A stretch of 64,000 nt of DNA from Amoebophrya sp. A120. Its lineage: Eukaryota; Protista; Dinoflagellata. Under the pieces are notes generated by a model. The model saw nothing but the letters and a program-made list of their open reading frames with translations, ran no database searches and was not told the DNA's origin. Location: NCBI GenBank assembly GCA_905178155.1, contig CAJINV010000002.1:1463809-1527808 (forward strand), written 5' to 3'. How positions within the stretch are numbered: the stretch's first letter is position 1; each line of letters starts with the position of its first letter. The translations under genes and the position numbers were made by a program. Positions 13,400 to 57,998 of the stretch are shown here, in pieces.

Positions 13400-16300
13400 T
13401 TACCTTCCCCCTTTAGCAGAAGAAGTCCCGCCGGCGTTGTTGTTCCGTTGCGCCCCTGCACCACCACGCCAGTTGTTGTTGGAAGTCATGTTTCCACCGC
13501 CGTTCATGTTTCCCGTAGTACTCATCTGTTGGCTCTGATTGTACGCAGAGGCGTGCGTGTTGTTATTCCCATAGACCGCGGTGTTCATCATCATGGACCC
13601 AGCTTGCATCTGGTTCATCCCGTGTTGCTGCCCCCACGAAGCAGACCCGTTCTGGTGATGTTGCGGGCCCCAGTTACAGCCTCCAGTCGCGTAGGAACCA
13701 GGAGCGCCGCCCCAATAATTGGCGCTGTTGTTGTAAGAACCCTGGTGGCCGCTGCAGCCTCCATAGCCGCCGTTCATCATGCTGCCGTTGTACTGGTGCG
13801 CGGCCGGCGCACCGGGATAAGAACCATTACCCTGACTGCAGCTTCCGTTGCCATTCATTTGATTGTACTGCTGGTTGCTGTAGTAAGTGGCATTTCCCTG
13901 CTGCTGCATGTTTCCGTTGTTCCAGTTCGCATTCTTACTGTAATTGTTCATCCCTGCTCCGTTGTTCTGATGCATGTTTCCACCGGTTGTGCCTCTGTTC
14001 TGCTGTTGATTCGCCGTCGTGCCGTTCTTGTTACTATCGCCAGAACCGCTGTTGCTGTTCCCCTGCTGCATGACTCCTTGCTGCTGCTGCCGGTTCATCC
14101 CACCGCTTTGACTACTATTGTTCTGCGCATTATTACCACCACCTCCGTTGCGCTTCTGGTGATGCTGATTGTTAGTTCCGTGGTGATTGTGGCCGTTATT
14201 ACCATGCAGATTCCCGCCGCGGTACAGCGCGTGCCCGACCCGATCGACCACCGCCTTGGCCTCCGCACATTGCGGCCAGCAGGACTTCACAACCTCATTG
14301 TACAGATACTCATCCTGCTTGCACATCCGGAACAAGGTGTCAAACTCCACACCAGGTCCGTCCTTATCAAATGTTAAAATGTCTGGGTCTGGAAGCTTGC
14401 AATTTGTCATGCTGTTTTTGGATTCCAGAAAAAGAATCTGTATTGCATGAGTACCACAAGGAATGTAATTTTTGCTACGCGGAGAGGGCGTTTGTCATGC
14501 GGAATAGGTATCAAGAAGCTCTCAAAAAATCCGTGATGCTAGGGCATGCATCACAGACATCAGGGCTCACGCAAAGCGTGCATGACAAGTGTCAGAATCT
14601 TCCAGACCCAGACATTTTTACAGTTGATAGTCCTGAAACGCTTGTAAGACAACGCTCCGCGCCTTCAAGACCCAGTCGGTATTATTGTTCTGCTGATTGT
14701 TTTGTTCATCCGCGCTCTTATTCATCTGGTTATTTCCACAGTTGTTGTTTGTGCTGGAATTGTTGTTAGTCCCACTTCCTCCGTTCCGCAACAACCCTAA
14801 AGCCAACGTCCCATAGGTTCTCGCATCGGGCGCAACATCAGATTTTTTCATCAATTCCGGAATCTGCAGTGCGTGCTGGAACCATTTGTTATTCAGCAAT
14901 GCGGAGAGCAAGCAGGTGAAGACGTGGTTATTCAGCGAAATGTTGTACAACACCGGCCACTGCTCCACTAATTTCAACGCCTCATCCACTTTCTGCAATC
15001 TCCCGTACATCTTGATCGCAATCGTCAACGTGAAGTGCGACGGGGTGAAACAACAGGTCGGTTTGGAGGTGGTAGTGTTGTTGCCGTTTTTATTCGCGTC
15101 ACCATTTATTTCTTGACCAGCATAATTCTGGTTGTAAATCATCTCATTAAACAACTCCAGCGCCTGCTCGCATTTGTTGTTCTTCACACAACCGTCTAAA
15201 AGCGTGTTGAAGATCACCTCGTTCGGTTTTAACATTCTCGTTTCCTCATTGCAGAAATGCTTGCGGTAAATCTGGATCCCGTGGTCGACTAGGCCATGCA
15301 TCATGTAGCCTTTGATGAGAGTGCCGAAGGTGATGATGTCGAGTTTTAGGTTTTTACTGAGCATTTCCTCGATCAATTCTTCCGCGTTTTGCATCATGTT
15401 CTCCTCTGACCGGCAGCAGGCGTCGATCAAAGTGTTGTACGAAACCTCGTTCATCAGGACCTGATAGAATTTCAATTTCTTTTGGTAGTTTTGCATGGCA
15501 AAAACACAAGCTCATGCGGATTCGCGCATGACAAAAAAAAGTGCGTAAAGTAAAAAAGAAATACGTTGTTCTCCCGCACGAACCCCAGCGCCTCCTTGGC
15601 CCGCCGTTCCAGCGCAAACCCCTTCAGCAACGTCGAGTACATAATCGGGTTGGGTTTCAGGATCGTCTTGTAGCTATTGAACAGCTCCAGTGCGTAGTTC
15701 ACCTGGTTGTTCGACACGCACGCGTCAATCATACACCCAAGAGTGATCTCATCCGGCTGCAAACCACACGTCGTCACCATCTCCGCCCAGAGCTTCTTCA
15801 CGTTCTCCAGGTTTTTCAAAATTCCCCAGCCCTTCAACAAAGATCCATACGTCGGCACGTTCGGGAATTTGATCTCGTTACACTCTAAAATCCGCTTCAA
15901 CCGTTGGTATTCTTTCCCGCGAATGCAGGAATCAATCGCCGTTTTCAATAAAAATTCATCCTGCCCGATCCAGATCTTATCCAACAGTTTAAAAGCCGCT
16001 TTGTTATTCTTCGCGATGTTCACGTTCACGTGGTTCGTCGATTGAACCCGCACCGTTTTCAACATGATCGTCACTGTGTAGTGGTCGATCGGGTACTTGA
16101 TCCCACAAAGGCCCTCGTTGATGATCCGCCAGGCACGTCTCGAGTCGCCCATCGAGACCGCAAGGTTTAAGATGGAGTTGTAGGAGACTCTATCCGGAGT
16201 GAACTGGGATTTCTGCCGTAATTGCTCCAAACAATCAAATGCATCGGGTAAAGTGTGGCAAAACGCCTTCAAATACGTGTTGTAGGAGACAGAATCATAT

Positions 16301-19300
16301 CAAATGTAAAAATGTCTGGGTCTGGAAGAGTCATGCTGTTTTTGCATGACACAGAAGGTCTGGCATGGAAGCTCAAGCATGACAGGTTTCGAGAAGCTTC
16401 CGCAATGCCGAATCCGCATGACAAATCCCCCACTTTGGTGGCAGAAAGTGGACAGCTTTTGCTCCCCATGCATGAGAGATTTTTCTGTGTTCTGAAATGC
16501 GCATCACAAGTTTGTATTCTTCCAGACCCAGACATTTTTGCATTTGATAAATCACAAAGGTTGAATTGCTCCATTTCTTCCAGAATCTCCTTCGCCAATT
16601 CCCGTTTCTTATCCTTGTTGCAGAATTGCTGATTTAACGAGACGATCGTGTCGAGCAGCGCGTTGTAGGCCGGACGGATGAGAGTGTAGTGATTGGAGGA
16701 AGTGTCTTTGTTGCTGTTGTTGTTTCCGGTTGTGGTAGCAGCATAAGCATTCGCCTTGGTTATCTCCTCTGCATTTTGATTTTCCTTGCCCTGCTCGCTG
16801 GTGTCTTCTTTATTCGCGTGGCAGGCAGCGGCGTTGTTCTCGCGGAGTAATTTCACAATCGACTTCGCCTCCTGTAATTTCCCTTGCCGGCCGAATCCGC
16901 GAATCATGGTGATGTAATCCTTCAAATCCAACTGTTTGCTCATGGTTGTGCTGTTCTCAACGTTTGTTGTCCCAGAACTTGTATTGCAGGCGGAGCTACT
17001 CCCTGGTGTTTCCGTCAACGACACTTGCCGTCCTGGGTTGGTGTTCATCACCATCGGACTCGGGAGAGTCACAGATTTGTCTAAGCGGTCGTCGTCGTTG
17101 TTGGGACAACAGGCACCCGCAGGAGCAGTGCCTTCTTCATTCACCATGGCGTTGGCGCCCCCGTCGACCTGAGGACTACTGCCAGCACTCGTCTCAATCT
17201 CCCCGGGGGAGGACAAAGAGGACTGCAAAGAAGTGGCACCGGTTGTGATCTCCTGCTCTGTGCTGGTTTCTCCACCAGAAAGACCGCCATTAGAAGTACA
17301 ACCACCCGAAACGCTCGTGTCCGTAGCAGAACAGACCAAGCTGGAGAACAACTTCTCCGCAACATCATATTGGCCGAGCTCAACGCAGCATTTCAAAACG
17401 CATCCTAATTGCGATGTAGAAGGCGTGTTCTGCTTGTTGGCATTGTCGGAATTAGCGTTGGCTGTATTCCCGGTTTGCAAGTGCTGAAAAGCCGCGTGCT
17501 GGTTCTTGCGCGGGGAGGGGAGGTACTCTGTTTCAAGTTTCGATTTGTTCATGCGAATCTGTAATGCGGAAAAAGGTAGAAAAAAGCAGTTTGTCATGCG
17601 AGACTAGCATGAGCATCAATTGAATCAATGAGCAAAACAGAAATCGTCCATACCTGGATGCCGCTCGAAAAACAGTTCACACGCGGGTGAGTACATCGAG
17701 CAACTCGCGTAGACCTGCATCATGGTGTACATCAAATTCGGCATCAGATCCGACATTTTGTCGTAGAAATATTCCGCGAGTTTCAGTTGCCGGAACTCCG
17801 CGCAAATCTGCAGCAAGAAATCCAAATTCTGCGAGCACTCCTTCTGGGTCGGGGTTAGTTGCAGGTACTTCTGCTGGTATTCCTTCTGCGTGAAAGTCGA
17901 GTGCTTGCTATTTTTCGGGTTGCAACCATTTTGCAGTAGAAGTTGTGGTTCCGAGAGCTGCTGTTGCTGCTGTGCATGACAAACTTCGCTTTTTCCCATC
18001 TGCATCAATTCCTTCACGTCGTAAAACTCCGTGTATTGGTCAAACAGCTTTTTGATTACATCGTGGTCGTCTAAATGGTCGCGTAAGTGGTAAATCAACG
18101 ACCGCCAGATCCGTAAGCATTCAGGGTACATGGAGATCGGGGTTAGAAATTGCTTGTTGCCCGTCTGTTGCTGATTGTTTTCCATCAGGGTCGACGTCTT
18201 CTTCCCGCTGTTTGTCATGCTCGGATTGTTGTTGTTCTCGATTTTGTTGTTCATTTCCCCACAATTCAACGGCGGAGAAACCAAATTAGACCGGATATCG
18301 GACAAATCTTCTTTCTCATCCTTGTTCGAAGAAGAATTCTGCGTGACCGAGAGGTCGAACGTGTTGTCCTCTTGCTCGCGGTTGTTCTTGTCTGCCGCAG
18401 CCGCATTGTTCCCTCCGTCACGAGACCCACCGCGCATCTTCTCAAACTCCTCAACTTCACCTTGATTTTCGTTACAGTCGGGCGACTCCAACCACGGTGA
18501 CAACAGTAACGAGTTGTCCTTTTTCAAAACCCCAGAAGTGTTGTTGATCAAGACGGAGGGACTCAAATCCCCTGCGGCGGGGGAAGGTAAAACGTGATGC
18601 GAAGTTTCCGTGATCGGGGTTATTTTCGACAAGGGCGGAGTGATTTCCTGGGATTTGGCATGCTTTTTTCCACCAGCAACAGAGCTGCTGTGGCCACCAC
18701 CACCAATCAGCGCTTCATCCTCGGGGCTCAAGGGGCGGGAGTTGTTACCGGACTTCCCGTTCATCGTCCCGGAAGTTGTGTGCTCCGTCTGGTGGCTGAA
18801 AACTTCGTACTTTCCAGCACCCGTCTGACCCTGCGCCACATGCGAAGACGTGTACCCACCAACATTGGTGCTGCAACTGGCTGTCTTGGAGAATTGCTGA
18901 GCTGTGCTGGTACTGGAAATACTGTCGGAGGACTTGTTTCCATACCCGCCTTTCGACATCGAATTACCGTTGTTGTATTTCGACATAGTGCCTTGGTGCG
19001 TGTACGACTTCCCGAGGTGGTGCTGGTTTGCACCGTTCTGCTTGCCATGGCCATTTCCGCTGTCCTTGCTCGAGCTCCGTTTGTTGTTGTTCCCCGCTGC
19101 ACCTCCGTTTTTCCCCCCACCGACAGAGCTGTTCGTGGTCGCGGAAGAGGAAGTTTTGGACATAGTTCCACCACATTGCGACTCGGTACAACTACCGTAG
19201 TGGTGTTGTGAAGTTCCGCTCCCACCTCCGTGCTCTTGGTGCTGCATCACTACCTCTTCCGTTCCGTTCGTGCTCGGATTCCACGGCGCCGCCCCGGCGC

Positions 19301-22300
19301 TCATTGTAGTCGCAGTTGTACCAGCGCCGGAATTTGTCATGCTAGTCGTAGCACTAGTCCCCATCTGCTGCTGCATCAGCCACATGTTCATCGCGTTCTG
19401 AATGTTCATGTTCATCGCACTCTGCATGTTCATCCCGTTCATCGTCATCGGTGTCGCCCCGTCGTAGGAACTTGTCATGGGCATTTGCATAGAACCAGGC
19501 TGCGTACTCACTCCAGAAGTTCCAAACATATTCATTTGCTGCATGTGCTGCAAAAACGCCATCTGCATAGCGTTGGAAAACTGCATGGGATTGTTGCCGT
19601 TTTGGTTTTGCTGCCCGACAGAATTATTGTTGCCTGTAGTGGCCGCATTGCTCATCAACCAGTCCATGAAACCGCGAGGGTCAGTGGTGCTTCCCCCTTG
19701 TTGCTGTTGCTGCTGCCCGGATCCGTCGTGTGCTGCCGCAGTTGTAGTGCCAGCATTTCCCATCGCAGCCGCGATGTTCACCGGCTGTCCATTGTTCATC
19801 GCTTGCATTTGCGACAACAGCTGTGCCTGCTGAAACACGAGTGCGGGGTCTGCGAAACCAGTAGTGCTTGTTCCCCCAGAAGTTGTTGTTCCATTCCCGT
19901 TGGCATTTCCACCGCCAAACGCCGCGTTGCAGTTACTCTGCATCTGCATGAACATGTTCTGCAAGTTCAAAGCCGCGGCCGCCGCCGCCGCGGCAGCCGT
20001 CTGCGAATTGGCTCCGGCCAACATTCCCGGCATCGGCATCATCGCTCCGTTGATCGACGGAAGCCCAAAACCGCACGCGTTCAACCAGCTTTGTCCGGCC
20101 CAAAACTGATCCGCGGCTAGCGCGTACTCCTGTTCCGCTTGGAGTTTGTCCGGATCGTTTCCAACTAGCTCTTGATGCTGTTGCAACGTTGGATCGGTCG
20201 TGAAACTATCGCCTGGCGAAGAGGTTAACGCGGAGAGATTCAGCATGTGGTTGTCGATTTGGATCTGGTTGTTGCCATTGACGTTACTCGCATTTCCCCC
20301 AGCATCACAAGTTCTAGTTTTGCTGTTGCTGTTTCCGATGCCAGCGTCTTCCTGTCCATCCGCCGGTGGCGGTGGCGGCGGGGGAACGATTTCGTGCTGC
20401 TGCTCTTGCTGCTGCTGTTGTTCCATAGCATGACAAGCTGCTGTTCCCATTTGCGCGGCGGCGGCGGCTCCTGGGGGTGCTGCAGCCACCATGATTTCTC
20501 CACTGACCGGGTTATAGTAGGTCGGAATCCACTGTTCCTGCGCAGGTGGTTGCGCTAACATCGCTGTACCCTGCTGATGGTGACCATACGTCGTATGATC
20601 CATTGCTGCTCCAGCCTGCTGCTGGTGGGCAATGGCAGCACTACCACCCATTTGATGTTGTCCGCCTTGCAAGTTGCCAACCTCCTGTGAATGATGTTCT
20701 TCCTCTCCCAAAACTTCCACCCCGCTGTCACTACATTCCTCACTCTCCTCCGCAGAGCTACTGCTTACCGCACAGGAACTGGAGCTGGTATAGGCTTGTG
20801 TGTCATCTATGCATTGCAAATATGTCTGGGTGCGGAAACTTGTGATGCAAGAAAGGGAAGAGTGAGCACACTGTGATGCGCTGCCCAGCATGACAAGTTT
20901 TTCCGTGGTTCTGCTTCTGAGTTGCGTACTTCGCATGAGAAACTGCGTTTGTGCATGAAAGACGCGAGGAGTTCTTCGCGGCCACGCAATACAAAGTTCA
21001 GAGTCATCGTTATGCCAGACGAGCATGACACATCTCGCAATCTCCCAGTCCCAGACATATTTGAACTGGATATCATCGTCCTTCTGGCAACTCGTCGGGC
21101 AATCTTGGTGCTCGTACGTCGGGTAAACGTTACAGTTCGCCGGGGGGCTGTTGTTCGAAACAGATAACCCTGGTGGACTATTGAAAATCCTCTCCCTTTT
21201 TGTCATGGAGCTGTTGTTGGAAGTTATTTTAGACGAGGATTTCCTATTCCCGTCGTGGTTCTTCTGATCCGGCGTTTTAATATTAACGCTGCTTGCGTTC
21301 GAGCTCGCGTTTGCAGCAAGGTTGCCGCGACTGTTATTCATTCCGTGATTGTAAGATCCCCCGCCGTTGCTGGTACCATGATTTCCACCACTCCCGCTAT
21401 TCGTCTTCGACCGTCGCATCTTTTCACTGTTGCTCATGGTCTGCGAGTGGTTCGAAGCGGAATTGCTGCGTTTATGCGGGGGGGTGCGAACCCCGCACAG
21501 GCCCATCGTGGTACCCTGTTGGTTTTGGCGCTGGATGGAAATGTCGGGGGAATTGGGATTCGAACCCGCGATGGAAGCGGCCTTTTGTTTGTTGTCGTTG
21601 CTGCGCTTGCGAGCCGATAAAGAGTTGTGATTTGCAGTGCCGGTTGAAGGACCATTGCTGTTATTGTTGTTCCACTGGTGTTGGTTGTTATTGTTTGTCA
21701 TCCCGCTCATATTTGCGGCTCCTTTCGACGCACCAGTTCCGCTGTTGCCACTGTAATTCGGGTTACAGTTGTTGCCATAAGTAGACCCACAACCCGACCG
21801 GCCTTTGTGATTCTGGTTTTCATTTCCGTAGTAAGCGTTACTATTGTTCACCCACTGGTGATTGTACTGCATATTATTACCTGTCATCATACCGCCTGGG
21901 ACAGTAGAACCCTTCATATTGCCGTACTGGTTACCACACCCGTTCCAATAACTTGCATTCGGCTGGGCGTAATAGCCTCCAGCACAAGCTCCATTCTGAT
22001 CACCAGTAGCGTTGTTCATACCGTTCTTTTGCAGAACCGTTTTGATGTTGCCACCGGTAGTACCCGCAGAAGATTGTTGCATTTGGCCATTATTTCCACC
22101 ACCACCGGAGCAAGAGTTGATATACGCGATGCCCGCATTCAAATTCGAAGTCGGACCAGAAAAGTCCTGCTGTGAAGACATGTCTACTTCCACTTTGCTC
22201 GTCTTGCGGCGGTTGTTTTGCTGGTGCTGATTCATCTTCCCATTGCCATTGCCATTCGACGAACCGGTGTCGCCGCTCTGCTTGTTTTGCACGTCTGTAG

Positions 22301-40100: not shown

Positions 40101-43100
40101 CTTATTCTTGTAATTATCCTGTGCAAAAGTATCGCACTCGTAGTAATTGCAGTTATGCATGACAAATCTCTTTCTCAAAGTAAATTAGCATTACAAGTTG
40201 AATTTGTAATGCTGGGCTAATTTGTAATGCAATTTATACTAGTACGATGCTTTTGCATTGCATAGTAATCTTGGGTAAGCAATTTTTTCGCGTTCTCCCG
40301 CTTCATCAGTTTCTGCTTCTGGATAAACACCTCCATGTTTTTATGGTACTCCTCCCCGAGCGCACCCAGATCGTAGCCCAGTTTCACGTGCGTTTTTACC
40401 TTCACTTTCTGCTGTAGGTAGAAGGACGCGATAGAGGAAGAGAGTTGGGTGGAGGAGGAGGTCACGGTTGGGCCATGGGAACTCGTCGAGGGCTGATAAT
40501 TATTTGATAAGGAAATTGTAATTGAATCCTTCGTAAACGCAGTTTTTGCATCACAAAACCATAACCATTGCCATTCTCACATAAAGGAATCGCGCAAGAC
40601 GAACTGAATCTCTGCAAGAAAAAACTGACAATCTACCTCTTTCAACAGCTCGAGCGAAATTTGTTTTTTCCCGATGTCAAATGCTTCCTGCACCCGCATG
40701 GCTTCCGGCACCTCCAGCGGGTCTCCGATCACTTCCAACATTAGTTTCGCGACTTCTGGGTGCATGGACAAACCCTCCGCGGCGCACCGTTTTCTTTCCG
40801 ATTCAATCAACGCAATTATAACCTGCTCAGGTGTTACAATCTCAAACGTTACAATAGAGTCTGGAATTTGTGTTGCAAGAAGTGCATTATCTAGCTTACT
40901 CCCATAGGATTGCGCATGACAAGTTCTGGAGTCCCAATCCGCACAGCAATCTGGCGAAATTTGTATTGCAGAAAGTGGAACGCTGTCCGAGTCTGTCATG
41001 CTCATCATGCAATACAAAACCCAGATTCTATTGTAACGTTTGAGATTGTAACGTTTGAGCGGGTCATAGCAATCACTTCCGTTTTTTTCGTGTCATCCTT
41101 CATCTGCTGGAACTTTTCCTCCTTACTCATCTTCTTTTTCCTCTTGTTGATAATCACCTTCGGCTCCGGAGGCGCGTCTGCTGCGGGTTGTGCCGCTTCC
41201 GGCTCAGGGGACGTGTTCGCACTTGGGTTCGCCCCCGCTTCCTCGGAATTCTCCCGTGGTGGTGGTATTGAAAGAAAAAAGTTCGTCACAGTCACTAATT
41301 TTCATTTTTTGAAAAAAAATCAGGGCAAATTGAAAATTTGACTTGATGGCCGAAAAAGCAACCAGCTTAAAAACTTCAGGCCTCGCGCGGCATGCTGAAG
41401 CCACGGCCTGGCTGCGTTTTGCGTGCCCGGGTTGTCTTAGCTCACTGAAGCTTACCCACTGCGCGGCCCCACAGCCTTTGACAGGGAAGGACACCTACCA
41501 GGAAAGGGGGCAGAGCGCGTGTCTTCGATTACACGGACCTAGCGCGCAAGTGGTCGCGCAGCGCCTCCATGGCCTTCCACTTCTCCCTTGATAAAGCAGG
41601 CCGCCTTCGTTCCGTTGAACATCTAAAAGGCCGCCACAAGGCCGGCCTGCAAAAGTGATTGGGCCTGGTTACATCTGTCCAGACCTCTTTTGGCATTGGG
41701 CAGACCGCCCAAAATTTCAAAAAAGCGGCGACAGCTTTTTTTTTTCAAAAGTTGCCTTTTGAACATTCGTTCGCGCAGTCACTCGGCCTAGTTTTTTTCG
41801 GTCGCTCGAGTTTTTTTTCGACCCCCGCCGAAACGAAAAATTGGCCGAGTGACGAACTTTTTTGGCGAATATGATTTCGCTTTCCCGCACCTAAAATGCC
41901 GCTTTTTGGAAATTGAAGCGCTTCGTCACTCGGAGCTTTTTTCACAAAAAAAGGCTCCGCTTTTTTGTCGTTTTTGTTCTGTTTCAAAACAATTTTTTGA
42001 CCTGTTTTTCTCCGAGTGACTATGGCGCGCAAGAATCAAAATTCCAATTTTCGGCTTCATGCAGTCGGAAAGATTTGCGGTTTTTGCGCATTTGCGTAAG
42101 TTGCTTCTGCCTTTAGGCAAGGTAGTCGACTGCCCTAGTCCGCCCAGTGACATGTGCCGCACTCAGCCCCGTGTTTTGGGTATTTCGTTAGAGGGGCGCG
42201 CGTAAATGCGTTGCCGCTCATCGCTGGCACATATTTTGCAAAAGTTCTTGGCGCAGTAGCTGCGCTAAGAATTTTTTGCGTAGCCAGGAAGGCGTAGGAG
42301 CTCTTGCGGAGGCATGTGTGCTTCAGCGCGTCTGCCCCGGAAATGGCTAGAATTTAGCTCCGTCAAGCCGTCGAGACCACTAGTTCTGCAAAATACAAGG
42401 CCCTTGCAGTCGAAGGGGAAAAGGTCGCGCGTTTCCTCCACATCAGAAGATTTCTTCTTTTTCACCTTTCAATTTTTCGAAAAATGAAAAATTGTGACTG
42501 TGACGAACTTTTTTCTTTCGATAGGTGGGAACGCGGAGGCAATTGGGTTCGCCGCTTCCTCGGAATTCTCCCGTGCTGGTGGGAATATGGAGTGACAAAA
42601 CGCAAAACAGGCCTATTGGAAAGTGGCGAAAAAATTTAATTTTCTTCAATGTGGATTGAGGAAAATTAAATTTTTCGAAATGCGCCACGGGCGTTTGTTG
42701 CATTCTTGGCGCCAAATTGGGAGAGGAAATGGAGCAGAGCGGGGAAGCAAATTAGCACGACGAGTAGACGCCATATGCTTTGCGAACCCGTCCGATTGGG
42801 TGAAAAGTGGCACGAGTGAGGACTTATTTTTTCGCACCCCACCCCGACCGAGCGTGACAATGGCGAATCCACCCCACTGCCCAATCACCCGGCCGGGCGG
42901 CGGTGGATGAGCGATAGGCATTAGTTTGGGACGTCAATAGCTCCAAATCCTTCGCATTAATGCACACGGGGCAAGGCGCGTTGTTTTGCCGCTGTGCTGT
43001 CGCGATGGAATGGGCAGCGGCTCCTTCCGTGACTTTGCTTGGCCAACAAACCGCTTTGGAGGTTCAGCAAACATCAAAGGGAAGTAAGAAAGAACAAGCA

Positions 43101-46100
43101 CCCCAAGCCGAGCGCGTGCGCTTTTCTTCGCCGAGTTACACTGCGAAAAGCCACTCGGACAAGCCACGCAGATGCATTCCGGGCCTCGGAAGGGGCATCC
43201 GAAGAGGCTGGATGGCCACACAGGCGCTCCGAAGTGTCCACAGTGGAGTCCTTTTCAGATCAAAAAACGCGCCATTTTTGAACTTCATAAATGTTCAAAA
43301 AAAGCGCCACTTTTGAATTCAATTGCGCGGGTTGGGTGTTTTCGGCGCGGGTAGGGTGTTTTGGGCCAACCCGCGCCGCGGGTTGGCTGTTTTGGGCCAA
43401 CCCGCGCAATTGAATTCAAAAAAGCCAACTTTTGGGCCTTTTTGAGGAGCAACTTTTTGGGCATTTTTGACGAGAAAAAAAGCCAATTTTTGGGCCGCTT
43501 TGCCGACCATCCAGACACTTTTCGGGGGCAAAACGTGGGCGCAAGGACGCCCTCCACTGCCTTGTCGGAGACCACACACGCCACACCTGCCCCTTCGGGA
43601 AGCCATCGCGAACACTGCAAACGCAACGGCACAACCGAGTGGCGTCCCCGAATACCGCGTCGCTCGGTGGCGAAGTGCCTTCTAGTGTGCCCCTCCCATG
43701 CGGAAGGTTGGCGAGATTGCCTCGCGTGGCCAGTCCGGCGCTCACGACGTCTCACGGGGCGCCAACCTACAAGAGACCCGACGCGACGGCCAAGTCAAAA
43801 GTGAGCGAAAACCGATTGCGCTCGAAAGCAATTCAAGAATCCCCGCGCGCAGCAGTTGCTTGAGTGTAGTTCTTTGCATCGCATAGACAGCCGAAACACG
43901 CGGAAAAGGTTGCCGCTTTTTGCGCGCATTGCGTCCTTTCATTTGAATCGCTGCCCCCATTTATTGGCTGGCAATCCTGCTGACTCTTCAACTACAGACA
44001 CACGTTTTTAGGTGCGCCGTTACTCAAAATTGGGAGGCCGATTTTCAGAAATTTTAAAAAAATCAATCGGCATTGAGAAAATATCAATTTTAGGGTTCGC
44101 CGCTTCGTCGGAATTCTCCCGTGCTGGTGGGAACGCGGAGGCAATAGGGATTGGCGGAACGGTCGGTGCACCAGATTCGGGTGCTGTAGCCGGGGCGGGG
44201 GGTTCTGTATTGAAATTTAAAGGCTAAGCTCAATGAAAAGTTGCGATTTGATGCCATGCAGGTGATCCAAGAAAATCTCATTTTGTCAAATGCGCAAATT
44301 CCTATCTATCATCTTACCTGCTGCCTCCACTGGTTCATCTTCCGGTGGTGCCAACAAAGCCGCTTCCTCCACAATCGCATTTTCTGTCGCTTTATCGACC
44401 ACCTCCTCCGCCACCTCCGCACTTAAATCCGGCTTAAAATTTTCATCCCCCTCTACTTCCTCTTCAACTACCTCCTCCTCCTCTTCAATCACCCCGCCAA
44501 TCCGCGCTTTTTTCGGTTTAGTCAATTCCTTTTCCGTGTCGGTTGGTTTTGTCCTCTCCACTGATAACCCGAAAACTTCTTCAGCCGAGTCCCGGATCAC
44601 GTCCTTCACAATCAGCTCCGACTGCATCTGTTCCGTCCAAGATTCCTCCGCGGAAGACGCTGCGGAGCTGGAAATCGCACCGGCCGGCTCTTCAACCTCT
44701 TCTGCGGGAAGATGATCTTCGTTGCTGGTAGAAAGAGAAAAAAGAAAAAAGAAAAAAAAAAAAGAAAAAAAAAAACAAACAGATAAAAAAACAGCAAAAA
44801 AAAAAAACTATAACAAAAAAAAAAAACTTAAAAAAATAATAAAGTGAAAAAAAAAACATGAAAAATAAAAAAAACAACATATAAATGACAAAAAAAAAAA
44901 CTAAGAAAAGATAAAAATAAAACAAAAATATAAATATAAAAAAATTTTCCAAAAAAAAAGAACAAAAAAAACATAAAAAAAAACCGCATATGAAAAAAAA
45001 TATTAAAAAAAAAAGAAAAAAAAAAATTTAGCAAAATTAAACAAAAAAATACATATTAAAAAAAAAAAAAAAAATCAAAAAAAAAAAAGACAAAAACTAA
45101 AAAAAAAAAAATAAAACAAAATTATAAAAAATAAATCAAAAATATAAAAAAAAAAAAAAAAAAAAAGACATCAAAACAGAAAAAAAAAAAAAAAATAAAA
45201 CAAAAAAAAAAAGAAAGAAAAGAAAAAAAAAAAAAATATCATAAAAAGATAAAAAATGAAAAAAAACACAAAAAAAATATTAAAAAAAAAAAAAAACAAA
45301 AAAAAAAAAATTTAAAAAAAATATTTACACTACAAAAAAAAAAAAAAAATAGACCGCATTTTAAACAAACAACAACTAAAATTCAGACAAATTCACTAAA
45401 AAACACAAAAAAAAGCAGAAAAAAAAAAAAATAAAAGAAAAAAAAAAAAAGTAAAAAAAAAAATAAATAAAAAAAAAAGAAAGAAAAAAAAGAACACGCA
45501 ACAAAAAAATAGAAAAGCAAACACAATGCAAAAACAAAAAAAAAAAAAAAAAAAATAAAAAAAAAAAAAAATAAATAAAAAAAAAGAAAAAAAAAAAAAG
45601 AAATAAAAGAAAAAAAAATATCAAATACAAAAAAAGAACAAAAAAAACCAAAAAAAGACAAAAATGCAAAAAAAAAAAAATAAATAAAAAATAAAGAAAA
45701 AAAAAAAAAAAAGAAATAAAAAAAAAAAAAAATAAAAAAATCAAGAACAAGAAAAATAAAAATAAATAAAAAAAATCAAGAAAAAAAAATAAAAATGAAA
45801 AAAACAAAAACCAAGAACAAAAATAAAAAAACAAAAAAAAAAGAAGAAAATAAAAAAAAAAAGAAAAAACATAAAAAAAAAAAAAAAAAACATGCAAAAA
45901 CAAAAATTGTAGAAAAAAAATAAAAAAAAAAACAAAAACAAAAAAAAAAAAAAAAAAAAAAAATAAAAAAAAATAAAAAAAAAGCAAAAAAAAAATAAAA
46001 AAAGATAAATAAAAAAAAGAAAATAAGATAAAAAAAAAAGAAAAAAAAAAAAATAAAAATATATAAAAAAATTAATATGTAAAAAAAAAAAAAAAAAAAA

Positions 46101-46764
46101 AGAAAAATAAAAAACAAAAATTAAAATAAATCAAAAAAAAATATAAACAACAAACAAAAAACAATAAAAATAATACAAATAAAAAAACTCAAAAAAAAAA
46201 AAAAAGAAAAAAACAAAAGAAAAAAGAACAAAAAAGAAAAACAAAGAAAAAACTAGAGAAATAAACCAAAACAAAAAAAAATAGGAATTAAAAGAAAAAA
46301 AAACGAAAAAGGAAAAAGAAAAAAAAATAATAAAGATAACGAAAAGGAAAAAGAAAAAAAAAATAAAAAAATAAAACAAGAAAAAATAAAAATGAAAAAG
46401 CGAAAAATAAAAGAAAAAAAAAAAAACTAACACAAAAAATAAAGTAGAAAAAGCAGCTATTAAAGCCAGATCATAAAAGAAAAAAAATGCAGCACAAAAA
46501 AAATAAAACAAAAAAGGACTTAAAAAAAAAACAAAAAAAAAAAAAAAAAAGAAAAACAAAAAAATAAAAAATAAAAAAAAGAAAAAAATAAAAAAATACT
46601 AAACAAAAAAAGACATATGCACCAAAAAAAAAAAAAAATAAACAAAATAAAAAAAAAAGAGAAGGTAAATATTAAAAAAAGCAAGAAAAAAGAAAAAACA
46701 AAAAGCAAAAAAAAAAAAAAAAAAAAACAAACAAGCAAAAAAAAAAAAAGAAAAAAAAAAAAAA

Positions 46765-46806
<42 letters not shown>

Positions 46807-47610: not shown

Positions 47611-47643
<33 letters not shown>

Positions 47644-50215
47644 AAATAATAAGAAACAAAAAAAAAAAAATAGAATAAAACAAAAAAAAAAAAAAAAAGC
47701 TAATAAAAAAACAAAACGAAAAAAAAGAAACAAAACAAAAAAAAAAATAAAAAAAATACAAACAAAAAAAAAAAACAATAAAAATATTATTAAAAAAAAA
47801 AAAGAATAAAAAGTAAAAAAAAAAAGAAACAAAATCAACAATAAGAAAAAAAAAAAAGAAATAAAAGAGAAAAAATAAAAAAAAAAACAAAAAAAAAAAA
47901 TAAACAAAAAAAAAAAAAAAATATAGAAATTAAAAAAAAAAAATAAAAAAAAAAAAAAAACTAAAAAAAATAAACAAAAAAGAAAAAACAAAAAAAAAAA
48001 AACAAAGAAAAAAAAATAAAAAGAAAAAAGAATAAAAAAGACAAAAAAAAAAATATAAAACAAGAGAATAAAACAAAAACAAAAAGAATAAAGAAAAAAA
48101 AAAAAAAAAAAAATAAAAAAAAAAAAGAACAAAAATAAATTTAAAAATAAAATAAAAATTAAAAAAAAAAAACAAAAAAAAAAAAAAAATATTAAAATAC
48201 AGAAACAAAAAAAACAAAAAAAAGAAAAAAAAAAAATAACGAAAAAAACAAAATAAAGAAAAAAGAAAAGAAATAAACAAAAAAAATAACAAAAAAAACA
48301 AAGACAAAAAAAAAAAAAAAACAAAAAAAACAAAAAAATTAAAAAAAAGAAATAAAGAAAAAAAAGAAAAAAAAAATAAAAAAAGAATAAAAAAAAACAA
48401 TATAAAAAAATTAATCAAAAAAAAAGCAAAGCAAAGAAAATAGATAATAAACAAAAAAAAAAATATTTTCAACAAATAATATACAGAACCTAAAAACAAA
48501 AAAAAAAAAATGAACAAAAAAAAAAACATCGACAAAAAAAAAAGAAAAAGAAAAATCTTCAAAAAAAACAAAAAAAAAGAAATAAAAGAAAAAAAACAAA
48601 AAAGAAAAAAATAAAAAAAAAATAAAAAAAAAAAGAAATAAATACAAAAAAAGAACAAAACAAAAAAAACAAAAGATAAAAAAAACGAAAAATAAAAAAA
48701 AAAAGAATCAAAAAACAACAAAGAAAAAAAATAAAAAAAAAAAAAATAGTATAGAATAAAAGATAAAAAAAAAAAAAAAAAAAAAGAAAAACAAGCTAAT
48801 AAAAAAAAATGTACCACAAATAGATAATAATCAAAAAAAAAAAAAAATAAAACCTCAAAAAAAACAAAATAAAAATATAAAAAAAAAAAAATAAAACAAA
48901 AAAAATCAACACAAACATAAACAACAGAAAACAAAAAAAATTATATAAAATAATGATCAAAAACAAAAATCAAAACTAAAAAAAATAAAAAATCAAAAAA
49001 AAGGACAACAAAAAACTAAACAAATTCCACAAATAAAAAAAAAAAAAAAAAAATAAAAAAACACGAATCACCAAATAAAATACAAAAAAAACCAACAAAA
49101 ACACGGACCGAAAACAAAAAAAATTATGGAAGCGTCAGGTTTGAAATCGTCAAAGTTGAAAAATTTGTGATGCATAAAATCGATACCAATTGGAAGCCCA
49201 ATTTCGAAGCGGCGCATGACAAATTTCGGCACCGTCAAAATCCAGTTTGTCATGCTGTTTAGCGAAAGAAGGCATCCTTTGTCATGCCACTTTAGCAGCT
49301 CCATCCCAAACCCGAAACAGGCTCACAATCGGCCTCACTTGCAATCCCTGCAAGACAGTCTTTTCGTGCCTTGCATTTTGTGCATCACAGATTATTTCAA
49401 CTTTGTTGATTTCAATCCTGACACTTCCATATGTTTCTATCGGAGTCTAGCGTACTCGGTGGACAGATGAACGCGGAAACTGATCCGGTGTGGTCGGTCA
49501 CTTCCTGCGACCCGTGGTCGGTAATGGTAAAATCCGTGTGTTGTAAGTGGAGCAAGGAGTTCGACTGTAGTTCCCCGCTGTTGTAGGTGTTCTGCTGATT
49601 GTTGTTCTCGTACTGCTCGTTCATCAGCTCTAGAGATTGTTCATCCCCGGGCAGTTCTAGTGACATATGCGAGTGCACAACTCCCTCTTGCACTCATTTG
49701 TAATGCAAAATACCGAGTCCACCTCTTTCCTTTAAGCATTTTGCGCATGACAGGTCTTGGACCCCGCTCAAACATGACTACAATCCATATCCGGATTTGT
49801 CATGCGGAAGCCACATAACTGCTGTTGCCTGTGTTGCTGTTCTTCCCATACAAATGTAGTGGAGGGGGGGTTATGCACTGCCATATGACATCAACACCTG
49901 CGACTGCTCATCCGCAATACGGTCCTTCTGTTCCTGCTCGGTGATGTCCTGGACGGTTTCTGGATTGTCCAAACCGGATTGAGAAAAAGATTTGTCTCCT
50001 TGCGCATTAGCTGCATCTTCACCAGGAAACTCCGTCCCGTCTAGGTTATATTTCGGCTCGTCCATCGGGGTGGTGACGGCAATCTCCTGGATCGTCGATT
50101 CGGACTGGAAGGAAGGCTTCCTGGAGAGTAGTTCCCGAGACAAGCCGTCCGCGAGCTGGTCTCGGACCTCCGCCTCCGTCCCCGGGGTAGGGGGCTTTTC
50201 TTGTTCTTCCGACAT
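34138..50215 (-). CDS. Giant low-complexity hypothetical protein with many RP[GS]T/RPSS motifs, interrupted by 14 introners, 3 GT-AG introns and an A-rich tract
   Basis: Exons can be walked in frame from MSEEQEK (50215) to 49432 and from ~44730 to the stop at 34138. GT-AG introns lie at 44205-44317, 40493-40636 and 39561-39673. Continuity across 44730-49124 is inferred. Confidence 0.75.
35220..35472. mobile_element. Introner family A (253 bp)
   Basis: TSD ctgcg/ctgcg. Spliced product reads QRPQ/HGGTRP. Confidence 0.93.
36227..36500. mobile_element. Introner family A (274 bp)
   Basis: TSD tcatg/tcatg. Spliced product reads ETPM/NNEG. Confidence 0.93.
36953..37223. mobile_element. Introner family A (271 bp)
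   Basis: Imperfect TSD tgccc/tgtcc. Spliced product reads IA[D/G]/TSKEH. Confidence 0.9.
38061..38324. mobile_element. Introner family A (264 bp)
   Basis: TSD cgttt/cgttt. Spliced product reads FMSQT/ALAQQ. Confidence 0.93.
38369..38677. mobile_element. Introner family B (309 bp)
   Basis: TIR tatggaagtgtcagaattcaaatcgacaaagtt / aactttgtcgatttcaatcctgacacccccata. TSD cgcga. Spliced product reads YDDIA/EAREQ. Confidence 0.92.
38816..39024. mobile_element. Introner family I (209 bp) that also contains an in-frame GT-AG intron (38813-39005)
   Basis: TIR tatccaagaaaaaaactgtgttagcgtaagtctgt versus rc tatgcaagaaaaaaaccgcgtaagtgtaactctgt. TSD tcctg/tcctg. Confidence 0.88.
39085..39348. mobile_element. 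Introner family A (264 bp), close relative of the 38061 copy
   Basis: TSD tggtg/tggtg. Spliced product reads AQTT/TAGYY. Confidence 0.93.
39827..40042. mobile_element. Introner family F (216 bp)
   Basis: Near-perfect ~35-bp TIR tatgagagtgcacaacccccctccccctcatttgt. TSD gtgtc. Spliced product reads HPST/LASEQ. Confidence 0.92.
40115..40264. mobile_element. Introner family G (150 bp)
   Basis: TIR tatcctgtgcaaaagtatcgcactcgta versus rc tatgcaatgcaaaagcatcgtactagta. TSD gtaat. Spliced product reads TQDY/KNKE. Confidence 0.88.
40817..41068. mobile_element. Introner family C (252 bp)
   Basis: TIR tataacctgctcaggtgttacaatctcaaacgttacaataga, with internal gttacaat repeats. TSD gcaat. Spliced product reads EVIA/LIESE. 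Confidence 0.92.
41266..42523. mobile_element. Large non-coding introner D (1258 bp)
   Basis: TIR tattgaaagaaaaaagttcgtcacagtcac / gtgactgtgacgaacttttttctttcgata. TSD ggtgg. Spliced product reads AFPP/PRENS. Confidence 0.9.
42586..44092. mobile_element. Large non-coding introner H (~1507 bp), right TIR truncated
   Basis: Starts tatggagtgac after gggaa. 42630-42685 is a degenerate inverted match to 44035-44092. Right flank is gggtt. Removal gives EAANP/PARENS in frame. Confidence 0.65.
44730..49120. repeat. ~4.4-kb aperiodic A-rich low-complexity tract (probable base-calling or assembly artefact)
   Basis: Mostly A with irregular single-base interruptions and no repeat unit. Begins abruptly mid-exon and replaces the expected TSD of the adjacent introner. 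Confidence 0.8.
49125..49431. mobile_element. Introner family B (307 bp), opposite orientation to the 38369 copy
   Basis: Family B TIRs, with an interior that is the reverse complement of 38369-38677. Right flank is tgttt and the left flank is lost in the A-tract. Confidence 0.9.
49666..49885. mobile_element. Introner family F (220 bp)
   Basis: TIR tatgcgagtgcacaactccc / ggggggttatgcactgccata. TSD tgaca. Spliced product reads QVLMS/LELPG. Confidence 0.88.
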
Positions 50216-53083: not shown

Positions 53084-54618
53084 TCACACCAACCTCCCCA
53101 AATCGAACCCGGTTGCGTTCTTAAACATCGCCCCGGCCACCCAACTCTGCATCTTGTCCTTCTGGTCCCGTATCAACTGCAAAAATATTTGGATCTGGAA
53201 ACTTGTAATGCTGCGTTGGGACTAGTGAATGCTCTGTAATGCACAGGCAAGCACGAGAAATATCTGCGCGTCCTTGTGTTGCGTTTTTCGCATGACAAGC
53301 TGCGTTTTTGCATGACAGGCAAAAGGGTCTCTTCTTGGACACGCATCACAAACTTTGTTTTTGGTCATGCCGGACAAGCATGACAAGTCTCGCAATCTTC
53401 CAGACCCAGACACTTTTGCATTTGATATCCCGGGAACACTTCCAAAACGCGACCAGATTGCTCCAGGCGAACACGTTGGCAACGACGAGGAAAACGACCC
53501 AACTGAGGTTCAGGGAGATCACGTTCAGGATGAGGAAAAGCGTCCAGATCAACGCCCAGCTATACCTGTTTTCATTTTTTCGTTTCGATAAGAGAGTAGT
53601 CGCAGTTTTGATCATTGGTTTTGCGCATGACAAAAGACCGCAGTCAAACCAAAGTCATTCAGCTTTATGCATGACAAAGAGACCAAAAAAAAACATACGT
53701 TCCCAGCCAGAAGACGTTTTTGTCGAGCGGATCCAGCTGTGATTCGTCTTGCAAAGACTCGAAGATCCATTCGTTGACCTCCTCACCCGTGGCTTCGTCG
53801 TCTTTTATGATGTTCCACCAGCGGAGACCTACTAGCTTTCGTCCGGTGACGTTCTTTACCTTTGAGAAGAAGTGCTTTGTCATGCAAAGTTGTCAAGCAT
53901 TTATGGTACTTATTTGTCATGCGAACCAGGGTAAGATCATCTCACGCTCAAAACAACAACCAGCTATACCGTCCAGAAGTCGAAAGCCAAAAATAGGATG
54001 CAGAAGATGTAGGTCAGCACTGTGTTGCTCCACAGGTAACCGCCGAAGAGGTAGGCGAAGAGGCTGTTATTGATGTGATCACAAGTCAACTGAATTTGTA
54101 TTGCGCAATCATCCTCAGAAACATCATTTCTCATGCGATGAAACACCTTAGAAGGGAAGTGAATCAACAGCATCTACTCTTTTATACCACAGCATCTTGA
54201 AGAGCAGGTGAAAGCAGCACACGACCGGGTGCTTCGCGTTTTTTATGAACTCCGGTATGGCCTGCTGCAACGCCGTGGGTGGCGGCGCGGACCCAAACCC
54301 CGTCATCTCTTGCGCCCCGCCGGCGGGGACAACTGGGGTCATGGTGCCGGATAATGAACTCGGTGTTGATACCCCGCCTCCGAGCGACCCCGCCATCGAA
54401 ACCGTCCCGGTTGTACTTGCGGTGGAGATTTTCTCCTGGCTGAAAAAATTATCAAGCTCATTTCTGCTCGCTTGCGGCGCAGTTGTACTGGTGGAAGGGG
54501 CAGGAGTGCTGCTTATGTCCGCGAAAATGTCGTCTATTGAGTTCCCAGCCGGCTGCGGATTCGCCGACATCCGGGGCGGCTGGTAGTTTGAACCGGTGCT
54601 GTTACCCGTTTCGAACAT
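53084..54618 (-). CDS. TVP23: Golgi membrane protein TVP23 (DUF846/FAM18), ~301 aa, 5 exons
   Basis: Signature motifs HPVVCCFHLLFK and [25 protein letters not shown]. GT-AG introns at 54064-54187, 53860-53969 and 53566-53698, plus an introner at 53171-53427, leave 906 nt in frame. Confidence 0.93.
53171..53427. mobile_element. Introner family A (257 bp)
   Basis: TSD tcccg/tcccg. Spliced product reads KCSRD/QKDKM (262-nt removal changes frame). Confidence 0.93.
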
Positions 54619-55525: not shown

Positions 55526-57998
55526 CTACATCACCACAATTTTCACCGTCCGTCCATTAATCTCCCCGCCGTCGAATTGGTGTTCCGCTTCATAGGCGTC
55601 TTTCGATTTTTCAAACACCACCCAACACAAATTCGCGTTTTCGTCAATTTCCGTCGTAACGACATCCCCAACTTCCTCAAACGCCCGCATAAGTTCCTCC
55701 TGCGACATGTTGGTCGGGCAGTTGTGAATCTGGATCATTTTCCCGAATCCCCGGTACTTCTCGACGGTTGTTGGGAGATGGCCCTTGTTGCCGTAAACCA
55801 CAGTCTGGGCTTTCTTTTCGACTTGACCGTGGGAGGAGATCACATCCAAAGCGTTGATCTTGTTGCCAGCGGAACGACGGGCGGTAGAACTAGTGTTCTT
55901 GTTCCTACTGACCGGGTGCTGTCTCGAAGTGCTGCTGGATTCTACTCGGTTGTCAACGACCTCCGGTTGTTCCCAAGAATTGTCGGAATAACTTTGCTCG
56001 TCGTTGTTAAAACTCTGCTCAACGTTATACCGATTCTGGTTGTTCCAGGACCGGCTGCGGGAACGATTCCGAGTATTCGCTCTCGGCGGACCGGCTTCCC
56101 ACGAGTCGTGCTCGTCGTGGTCTTTACCGCGTTTATTGCCTTTCTTCCCTTTTCCCTTCTTGCCCGAGGAAAATCCGCCTTTCCGCTCGTAAAAACCGAC
56201 GTTCCAGTCCTCGTAGTCCATATTCAGCCGTGGAGTCCGGTAGTTTTCGACGTAAGGTTCTTCTCGTTCTTCTTCCTCATAGTTGTAAAAATCCTCGGGC
56301 TGTTCGTGATTTTTCCCACCATTATACCACGACTTTCCGTAACCACCTTTTTTCCCGTCGTACCAGTAATCACCCTTTCCGTTCTTACCGTCTTTCTTGC
56401 CGTAATACGGCGCTACAACACCTCCGTCCTTCTTTCCAGAATAGGGGCCGTGGTTCTTGCTGTAGCCCTTTCCCTTTCCTTTGGAGTTGTACCAATCATC
56501 TTCCCATGCTTCTTGACCGCCTTTATTCCCCTTCCAGGAGCCGGAATGATCGACTGTGTAGGAGGTGTTGTAACTGTTGTGTTCTTCTTGGTAGCCGTTC
56601 TTCGAACTACCCTTCATCCACGGTTTTCCCTTCATCATGCCCTTCTCAAAAGCGGAATACGCAGAATAATCGTCGTTGCCTTTCGAGGTGGTACTTTTTC
56701 CGCCGTAGGACTTGTCTTTGCTACCTTTCTTTCCCGTTGTGCCGTAGTAAGAAGCGGACCAATTATCTGCACCACCGTTATACCCGCCCTTGCTACCGCT
56801 TCCCTTCTCCTTCCCCTTCGCCCAAGATGGAGGCGTGTAGGTATACCAGGTGTTCCGACGGAGGACCACTTTGTTCCCGGTAGAAGCACTGCTTTTTCCT
56901 TTCTTCCCTTTCGTACTATCGCCTTTCCCGCTTGTGCCGTCGCCAGACTTGCCTTTGCCCTGTTTTGTTGTTCGAGATATGAAATTATTCAATTTGCGAC
57001 AAAAATCAAAATGTGAATGGGCTTGTGTGCTGCATTTGCGTCAAGTTCCGATCATTTCCAAGTTACGTCATGCAGGATCAAGGAAAAAACCATATCAATA
57101 CCTTCCCGCCCTTCGCACTACCACCTTTAGGTTTCTTGATCGTCGCTCCTGCCTTTCGAACGAGGGTCGCCTTTTTCCGTCCTTTCAGAAATTTCACAAC
57201 CGCGGCACGTGCAGCCAGTCTCGCCTTTCCGCCCTTAGACGCGCCCTTTTTCGTTGTAGCTCGTACGCGTTTCAACTTCTGTGCGAGTGTCCGCTTTTTC
57301 GACAAAGCTGACATCTTGCCGATAGTGGACGTGGGTTTCTTCTTCAGTACGAGAGTCCGCTTAATTGCAGGTCTAGTAGTTGTCGCTTGTTCTACTTTCG
57401 AAGACTGCTTTTTACCCTGCTGTTTTCCCTTGCCCTTCGCTGGTCTGGTACTACCGCCCTTGGTACTAGAGGAGGGCTTCTCTCCTTTCTTGTTGCCCTT
57501 CTTCCCCACAAGACCACCGGAAGTAGTAGATGCAGCTCCCTTTTTCCCCGTCTTCCCCTTCCCTTTGGTCTGAAACTTCGCGGCCAACAGCTTCTTTTTC
57601 GCCCCGAGCTTCTTCACCAGTGCGGCAACGGCGGCTTTCTTCAGAATGGTGCCCCGCTTCGTGGTTTTCAGCATTCTTTTTGCATTCGTCAGAGCCGATG
57701 TGGAACTACCGGTAGTGGTTTTTTTTTTCGCAGCTTTAGTTCCAGCCAGTTGTTTCTTGCCCTTAGAAGTAGTTGCGCCAGCCTTGGTTGAAATAGAAGA
57801 TGAAGCACCTTTTATACTGCCGGTTCTTTTCGCTCCTTGTTTCCCTTTGCCCTTCATCTTGCTGTTTTTTCGAGGGCTGCCCGAAGCTGTGGTGGCGGTA
57901 GCGGTACTGCTGTTGGATTTGGTTTCGCGGGGTGGGAAGGAAGGTTTGGTCGGGTTTTTCGCTATCAGGTCGTCGAGACTGCTATCGAGTTTGCCCAT
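55526..57998 (-). CDS. Aly/REF (THOC4/Yra1)-like mRNA export adaptor, ~776 aa, 2 exons
   Basis: N-terminal REF-N-like motif MGKLDSSLDDLI, a long KGKG-rich region and a C-terminal RRM (IQIHNCP..CWVVFE..FDGGEINGRTV). GT-AG intron at 56960-57101. Confidence 0.8.

What the first reader, a model, noticed from the sequence alone, without database searches (positions are those of the whole stretch)
15461..57101. Canonical donors are mostly GTAT, matching the introner terminus N-TAT
Seen: 7 of the 11 candidate GT donors begin GTAT (15564, 17653, 31279, 53698, 53969, 54187, 57101). Intact introner ends begin TAT on either strand. Inference: the true 5' cut may lie one base inside the TSD (N|NTAT). In that case a spliceosome with a relaxed +1 position would read positions +2 to +4 of both intron classes alike, and TAT termini would be under splicing as well as transposase constraint.
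Basis: inference. Interest (0 to 1): 0.72.

Follow-up and report, generated by a model that had tools for sequence, protein, structure and literature searches.

The report
Transposon ends supply the splice donor
In the marine parasite Amoebophrya A120, most ordinary introns in this stretch start GTAT, and its transposon-derived introns are likely cut one base before their TAT end, which suggests one relaxed splicing machine likely reads both kinds and gives a testable rule for a splicing puzzle left open in print.

Summary
The window is Amoebophrya sp. A120. In detail: 8 of 10 GT-AG introns begin GTAT and all 10 begin GTA; RNA contigs support six. Eighteen TAT...ATA introners carry 5-bp TSDs; in all 13 with listed RNA junctions the element plus five bases is removed, so the cut usually cannot be placed. 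Three natural variants narrow it. One diverged TSD allows 0-2 TSD bases in the intron. A 5'-truncated element is cut exactly N|TTAA...CCATA+4. In a related species, only the one-base register reproduces the A120 orthologue's residue. In that relative the terminal T decays at transcript 3' ends (6-9 cases) but hardly at 5' ends (0-1). So N|NTA...ATANNNN| is likely (about 75%). Limits: the third base (T, +4) shows no constraint; introner acceptors have no AG, so relaxing +1 is not enough; GTAT has a published rival cause (+4U with SNRNP27K loss; snRNP27 is undetected in A120); no lariats were seen. The introners are known; I did not find this register in print.

The parts
15461..15564 (-). GT-AG intron, donor GTAT (104 nt)
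   Evidence: RNA contig pieces end at 15458/15563 in X3, X4; ORF intact
17528..17653 (-). GT-AG intron, donor GTAT (126 nt)
   Evidence: RNA contig pieces 17527/17654
31145..31279 (-). GT-AG intron, donor GTAT (135 nt)
   Evidence: RNA joint 31142-31278
39561..39679 (-).
   Evidence: RNA joint 39559-39679
40493..40636 (-). GT-AG intron, donor GTAG (144 nt)
   Evidence: RNA joint 40492-40637
44205..44317 (-). GT-AG intron, donor GTAA (113 nt)
   Evidence: RNA piece starts at 44318; contig length sum fits
53566..53698 (-). GT-AG intron, donor GTAT, in a DUF846 (TVP23-like) gene
53860..53969 (-). GT-AG intron, donor GTAT, same gene
54064..54187 (-). GT-AG intron, donor GTAT, same gene
56960..57101 (-). 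GT-AG intron, donor GTAT, in an RRM gene
36953..37223 (-). TAT...ATA introner with diverged TSD (GGACA/GGGCA); mRNA keeps the upstream A, so 0-2 TSD bases are intronic at the 5' end
   Evidence: joint 36947-37224, both=2; P0005 fits k=0-2 only
42582..44057 (-). 1,476-nt intron from a 5'-truncated element; cut N|TTAAAAT...CTCCATA+TTCC|C with no sliding ambiguity (3' cut = ATA+4)
   Evidence: joint 42581-44058, both=0, X3 and X4; P0005 reads IDFSPAR; remnant arm alignment
41266..42523 (-). 1,258-nt TAT...ATA element, 51-nt TIR, TSD CCACC
35220..41068 (-). Span holding nine further introners with perfect 5-bp TSDs: 41068-40817, 40264-40115, 40042-39827, 39348-39085, 39024-38816, 38677-38369, 38324-38061, 36500-36227, 35472-35220
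31489..31648 (-). Introner, TSD CGGTT
20808..21072 (-). Introner, TSD GATGA
16298..16549 (-). Introner, TSD TGATT
14365..14629 (-). Introner, TSD AGGAC
10976..11227 (-). Introner with diverged TSD (CGTGG/CGTCG); would test k<=1
   Evidence: no spliced RNA contig listed across it
49666..49885 (-). Introner, TSD TGTCA
53171..53427 (-). Introner, TSD CGGGA

Best explanation
A120's introners are non-autonomous TIR elements (TAT...ATA, 5-bp target duplication) that are likely removed by the same relaxed U2-type spliceosome as its GT-AG introns, likely cutting one base inside the upstream duplication and four bases after the final ATA (N|NTA...ATANNNN|). Shown: the element plus five bases is removed, leaving one TSD's worth of exon and the original reading frame. 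Supported by three junctions: the register. Inferred: the TIR supplies +2T and +3A of the donor, matching canonical GTA(T), while +1 and the last two intron bases come from whatever the target site was. Inferred: with U1 undetected, the donor would be read by U6/U5/Prp8 at +2 to +4, and the 3' cut would be set at a fixed distance from the ATA (possibly a branch A at -7 or -5) rather than by AG. The +4T of canonical donors is probably a trait of the spliceosome (SNRNP27K loss) that TAT-ended elements happen to fit. Odds: register about 0.75; shared spliceosome given the register about 0.8.
For: 13 of 13 listed introner junctions skip element+5. 37223 restricts k to 0-2. 42582-44057 has no sliding ambiguity and ends ATA+4, and its ends do not pair in the predicted fold, so a terminal stem is not needed there. 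L014 (related species), TSD GAAGG/GAAAA: k=0, 1 and >=2 give G, E and K; the A120 orthologue has E. Terminal T changed at 1 5' end versus 9 3' ends among 309 elements (p=0.022), 0 versus 8 among 223 (p=0.008); inner TIR positions are symmetric, 108 versus 106 in 105 elements. Canonical donors have +3A in 10 of 10 and +4T in 8 of 10; canonical acceptors have A at -5 in 8 of 10 (p=0.015 against A-rich tails) and A/T at -6 in 10 of 10, lining up with introner T-6, A-5. An internal motif (GCAT[GCT]ACA, either strand) occurs at 10.8/kb in introners, 8.0/kb in GT-AG introns, 0.2/kb in CDS and 0 in 23 kb intergenic (motif chosen by eye). Published: nearly all spliceosomal proteins present, U1 and snRNP27 undetected (PMC7789003); top A120 non-canonical classes are all NT-NN; A25 TIRs start TTA+RR with TT-NN classes, which read from +1 also gives +2T, +3A (the alignment is my inference).
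Against: Only one A120 junction pins k=1. L014 is modest evidence in a 68%-identical low-complexity protein. That asymmetry alone also fits k=0. +4T is not constrained in introners. No convincing selection for G at +1 (62/170, p=0.065) or AG at -2/-1 (20/170, p=0.024; 20/220, p=0.18; non-TSD positions reach 22). +5G is absent as a consensus (3 of 10 canonical). Ab initio donors in the relative: 8 of 53 GTAT versus 10% of nearby GTs, 3 of 17 after filtering. Table S4 classes may reflect aligner preference. Introners fold into strong hairpins and canonical introns do not.
Confidence: 0.6

Rival explanations
1. GTAT is an independent spliceosome trait (+4U after SNRNP27K/METTL16 loss), and introners are removed by a separate, structure-guided, non-spliceosomal machine as proposed for euglenid nonconventional introns; the match to TAT is coincidence.
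For: +4U tracks SNRNP27K/METTL16 loss in yeasts (PMC10581693) and snRNP27 is 'ND' in A120 and A25. 16 of 17 folded introners have z <= -3.3; canonical introns range -2.4 to +1.1. No AG acceptor in 18 of 18. Euglena introns are defined by a stem with offset ends (PMC12501133 abstract). Farhat et al. conclude the mechanism should be distinct.
Against: The truncated element is cut at ATA+4 without a predicted terminal stem. The 5'-specific retention of T is not expected from a symmetric stem. Both classes share the internal motif and the -6/-5 pattern.
Confidence: 0.22
2. The cut register is not fixed, or lies at TAT itself (k=0) or k=2; the 42582 junction is a cryptic special case.
For: 12 of 13 RNA-supported introner junctions are uninformative, and 37223 allows k=0-2. 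Farhat Fig. [quoted passage not shown] Annotated sites within A120 families are heterogeneous (PMC12130899 dataset rows).
Against: 42582 excludes k=0 and k=2 for that intron. L014 fits only k=1 without a non-synonymous change. Annotation heterogeneity is what TSD sliding produces.
Confidence: 0.13
3. The GT-AG introns here are decayed introners, so GTAT and the shared motif are inherited from TAT ends rather than read by a common machine.
For: Canonical introns share 13-43-nt internal segments with introners (best E 1e-5 to 0.26; shuffles 0.02 to 1.2). In the relative, some ab initio GT-AG calls are degenerate introners starting GTATG.
Against: No TIR hairpin and, by inspection of the junctions, no TSD beyond the AG|G match. 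They are shorter (104-144 nt) and lower in GC. 98.6% of intron positions conserved between A25 and A120 are canonical, which suggests canonical introns are largely old.
Confidence: 0.05

Closest known systems
Amoebophrya A120/A25 introner elements (Farhat et al. 2021, PMC7789003)
   Same: Same organism and elements: IR starting TAT in A120, 3-5-nt direct repeats, hairpins, U1 and snRNP27 undetected.
   Different: That paper leaves the border position unknown and does not, in the text and tables I read, link TAT to the canonical donor or give a fixed register. Its logos (Fig. 3, S23, S25) were not visible to me and may show GTAT.
+4U donor class with METTL16/SNRNP27K loss (Saccharomycotina GUAUGU; PMC10581693)
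   Same: Canonical donors prefer T at +4; SNRNP27K orthologue undetected.
   Different: No +5G/+6T consensus here; yeasts keep U1 and strict GT-AG; METTL16 status in A120 not tested.
Fritillaria borealis MITE-derived non-canonical introns (PMC11282704, PMC13326754)
   Same: TIR+TSD elements removed as introns in a genome with a modified U2 system.
   Different: There the commonest ends are AG-AC and AG-AT and U1 is present; here +2T is kept while +1, -2 and -1 appear free.
Micromonas/Aureococcus introners (Huff et al. 2016, seen only through PMC11282704)
   Same: DNA-transposon introns that co-opt part of the TSD so that splicing restores the exon.
   Different: They use canonical sites and need a suitable target; A120 targets show at most weak bias.
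Euglena nonconventional introns (PMC12501133)
   Same: Stem-forming ends with unequal spacing of motif to the two cuts.
   Different: Different motif (N3CDG / CHGN5-6|R), machinery unknown, no shared donor with conventional introns stated in the abstract.

Membership tests
Amoebophrya A120 introner elements | Host is Amoebophrya sp. A120 | tested here: met
   P0005, named A120, is 100% identical over 1,473 aa to my spliced model
Amoebophrya A120 introner elements | Terminal inverted repeats starting TAT | tested here: met
   18 elements, 13-19 of 20 matching end bases (TAT was required by the search)
Amoebophrya A120 introner elements | 3-5-nt direct repeat at the boundaries | tested here: met
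   5-bp TSD perfect in 16 of 18, 4/5 in 2
Amoebophrya A120 introner elements | Removed from mRNA | tested here: met
Amoebophrya A120 introner elements | Repeated across the genome | tested here: met
   TIR-bin depth up to 72,000 versus about 28 in unique bins in run X1
U2-type spliceosomal intron (for introners) | GT/GC at +1/+2 | tested here: not met
   G at +1 in 4 of 18; T at +2 in all under k=1
U2-type spliceosomal intron (for introners) | AG at -2/-1 | tested here: not met
   0 of 18 under k=1
U2-type spliceosomal intron (for introners) | Lariat with 2'-5' branch; dependence on U2/U6 | not testable with these tools
   Only contigs held these transcripts; raw-read runs X9 and X10 matched TIR pieces only
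+4U class with SNRNP27K/METTL16 loss | +4U preference in canonical donors | tested here: met
   8 of 10
+4U class with SNRNP27K/METTL16 loss | SNRNP27K and/or METTL16 absent | not tested
   snRNP27 'ND' taken from PMC7789003 Table S6; METTL16 not examined; no genome held
Named DNA-transposon superfamily | Cognate transposase | not tested
   Long elements were not searched for ORFs; the A120 TIR-DNA rows I saw in the PMC12130899 dataset have superfamily Unknown

The most novel reading that the evidence does not exclude
Amoebophrya A120, and probably A25, runs a U1-less spliceosome whose working code is N|NTA at the donor and a distance rule (ATA+4) with no AG at the acceptor, so a TAT-ended transposon with a 5-bp duplication is excised in frame in either orientation at essentially any exonic site. 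Transposon ends are then selected by splicing as well as transposition, which would explain how tens of thousands of copies spread, and canonical introns have converged on the same signals.
Probability: 0.45. Interest if true: 0.85.

Novelty: new variant of a known kind. Interest (0 to 1): 0.63.

Why it matters
How more than 60% of A120's introns are removed without GT-AG ends and without a detected U1 is an open question in print (PMC7789003, PMC11282704). The direct repeats hide the cut sites from ordinary cDNA alignment. A fixed register turns a seemingly random set of dinucleotides into one rule (NTA at the donor, ATA+4 at the acceptor). The rule makes sharp predictions for lariat sequencing, for diverged-TSD junctions in existing RNA-seq, for A25's donor logo and for Prp8/U6 changes. 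It would show the spliceosome can drop +1G and the terminal AG, and would explain target-independent, orientation-independent intron gain.

Tried and rejected
No whole genome is held and the metagenome contigs are not searchable by handle, so no genome-wide logo. No run was on record as RNA among holders; X3-X5 are labelled 'RNA?' but their contigs skip introns. Raw-read runs X9 and X10 matched only TIR pieces. The 11227 test failed for lack of a spliced contig. In one search the joint table was filled by DNA-run repeats, so junctions were read from contig pieces; 15 joints and 80 were not shown. Ab initio GT-AG calling found 7 of 10 window introns with 5 donors right and missed all three DUF846-gene introns; in the relative it is confounded by degenerate introners and is not usable either way. 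Orthologue tests that gave nothing: L067 (P0003/P0004 do not align across the junction), L023 (one hit that does not align to the locus), L018 and L040 against solved structures (alignments stop before the junction residue). Of 28 diverged-TSD elements with a predicted amino-acid difference, 5 were tried and 1 was informative. TIR pattern: 0 hits in viral contigs and genome contigs. Rfam: 0 matches in the window, so no snRNA to inspect. Atlas: no usable hit. Earlier findings: none. Rejected: selection for GT/AG inside TSDs as an established result; the internal motif as a fixed-position branch site, since it occurs in both orientations at variable distances.
Full report
Identity and anatomy. 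The window is eukaryotic DNA of Amoebophrya sp. A120: an exon at 37228-38055 matches a protein named A120 at 100%, and my spliced model of that gene equals it over all 1,473 aa. I modelled 8 coding segments, all on the minus strand. A scan for TAT...ATA with terminal inverted repeats and a flanking duplication found 18 elements of 150-1,258 nt, with a 5-bp TSD perfect in 16 and 4/5 in 2. These are the introner elements of Farhat et al. (PMC7789003; I read the abstract, passages, sections 11, 12, 25, 36, supplementary legends and Tables S4-S6; figures were not visible).

The observation. The seven listed donors are GTAT. I count 10 GT-AG introns: 8 GTAT, 1 GTAG, 1 GTAA, all GTA. Contigs of one sample (X3, X4, X5; labelled 'RNA?', but they skip introns) support six, including 39679, where RNA picks GTAT over a nearby in-frame GTTT. 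Against the 3.9% background the enrichment is overwhelming; against an illustrative 25-30% GTAT share the RNA-supported subset alone is borderline.

Where is the cut? All 13 introners with listed junctions lose the element plus five bases, so with a perfect TSD at least six registers give the same mRNA. Let k be the number of TSD bases left in the intron before TAT. At 37223 the copies differ at position 3 and the mRNA keeps the upstream base, so k<=2. At 42582-44057 the main transcript contig shows a joint with no sliding room: the intron ends CTCCATA+TTCC, four bases after ATA, and starts TTAAAAT. The contig length fits with no extra bases, and the public protein reads IDFSPAR (it may derive from the same RNA). 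This element appears to have lost the outer ~40 nt of its 5' arm, and its ends do not pair in the predicted fold. It is one case in one sample, without a DNA check. The third window test, 11227, had no spliced contig.

A related species. A TIR pattern scan of metagenome contigs returned 161 loci (417 kb, partly overlapping) from one assembly whose proteins are 50-68% identical to A120's. At L014 the TSD copies are GAAGG and GAAAA; k=0, 1 and >=2 give G, E and K, and the A120 orthologue has E. Only k=1 puts both mutations inside the intron. This is modest evidence; four other such tests were uninformative. Among 309 oriented elements, changes at TIR positions 1, 2, 3 were 1, 2, 6 at the transcript 5' end and 9, 7, 6 at the 3' end (position 1 p=0.022). 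Stricter sets gave 1,2,5 versus 6,4,2 (n=273, p=0.125) and 0,2,4 versus 6,4,1 (n=194, p=0.031); inner TIR positions were symmetric, 108 versus 106. Orientation came from my coding model, and thresholds were explored after seeing the data. The reading is that the first T, and perhaps the A, are held by splicing and the third base is not. TSDs show no convincing selection for G at +1 or AG at -2/-1. Ab initio calls of canonical introns in this species did not reproduce GTAT (8 of 53; 3 of 17 after filtering), but the method is confounded.

Shared signals. In the k=1 register canonical donors G-T-A-T align with N-T-A-T. Canonical acceptors have A/T at -6 (10 of 10) and A at -5 (8 of 10), aligning with the introner's T and A. 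A motif GCAT[GCT]ACA or its reverse complement occurs 59 times in 5,481 nt of introners (17 of 18), 10 times in 1,250 nt of GT-AG introns (7 of 10), 5 times in 23,007 nt of CDS and never in 23,358 nt of intergenic DNA (motif picked by eye). Canonical introns lack the end-to-end hairpin: z -2.4 to +1.1, versus <= -3.3 in 16 of 17 introners. No introner ends in AG (0 of 18), so the machine must relax both ends.

Mechanism. Shown: precise removal of element plus one TSD length; GTAT-rich donors. Supported: k=1. Inferred: one spliceosome reading +2T/+3A without U1, with the 3' cut set by distance from ATA. Farhat et al. report nearly all spliceosomal proteins, no U1 and no snRNP27. Parker et al. 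(PMC10581693, passages) link SNRNP27K/METTL16 loss to +4U, which explains canonical GTAT without introners, so cause and effect are open. A25's TIRs start TTA plus two purines and its top classes are TT-NN; read from +1 this again gives +2T, +3A (my inference) and makes A25's canonical logo a discriminating test.

Prior art. Seven literature searches found no paper stating this register. Farhat's Fig. 3 legend says the border remains unknown; Table S4's NT-NN classes hint at it but may be aligner bias. PMC12130899 (passages; part 15 of supplementary file 8; files 13-14 not searched) labels A120 families 'co-opt both' or 'co-opt 5-prime' automatically. Also seen: passages of PMC11282704, PMC13326754, PMC12005148, PMC11453091 and bioRxiv 2022.06.08.495308, and the abstract of PMC12501133. 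Roy et al. 2023, Henriet et al. 2019 and Huff et al. 2016 were seen only as cited. Unseen logos may already display GTAT, and most subscription journals are not in the library.

Verdict. Observation confirmed; interpretation partly supported. Known elements, with a likely new and testable rule for how they are spliced. Interest 0.63.

Noticed in passing
window 44058-44090: A remnant of the truncated element's 5' arm appears to be exonised and encodes about 11 residues (KIDIFSMPIDF); an NTAT 28 nt upstream of the used donor would be out of frame and is not used.
   Followed up: partly
window 44760-49100: About 4.3 kb of near-homopolymer sequence (GC about 0.1) interrupts the large gene; probably an assembly artefact. 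The X3 contig has 724 nt upstream of 44735 not placed in the laid stretch.
   Followed up: no
window 41266-42523 and 42582-44057: Two long (1.26 and 1.48 kb) TIR-type introns separated by a 58-nt exon within a repeated coding unit; not searched for transposase ORFs.
   Followed up: partly
window 8000-9000, 24000-25000, 29000-30000, 32000-33000: About 1-kb blocks of GC 0.70-0.73 sit in the spacers between successive same-strand genes.
   Followed up: no
window 60900-61370: The 3' half of an introner abuts sequence that is duplicated at about 61000-61370 and 62900-63070; possible mis-join or nested insertion.
   Followed up: no
window 62400-62870: Tandem repeats of a unit of roughly 60-120 nt, seen by eye.
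   Followed up: no
L001-L161: A different species (50-68% protein identity to A120) carries exact 29-nt matches to the same TIR family and 74-90% identical copies of other families: long persistence or exchange of introners.
   Followed up: partly
window introns of both classes: The orientation-independent motif GCAT[GCT]ACA marks introns and is nearly absent from exons and spacers; it could be a splicing-factor or transposase site.
   Followed up: partly
window 10620-11573: A 228-codon ORF with an introner had no spliced contig in the three RNA-like runs laid.
   Followed up: partly
window 13400-23050: A 2,873-codon gene whose C-terminal part looks PPR-like (recalled resemblance, not tested); RNA poly(A) end near 12170.
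   Followed up: no
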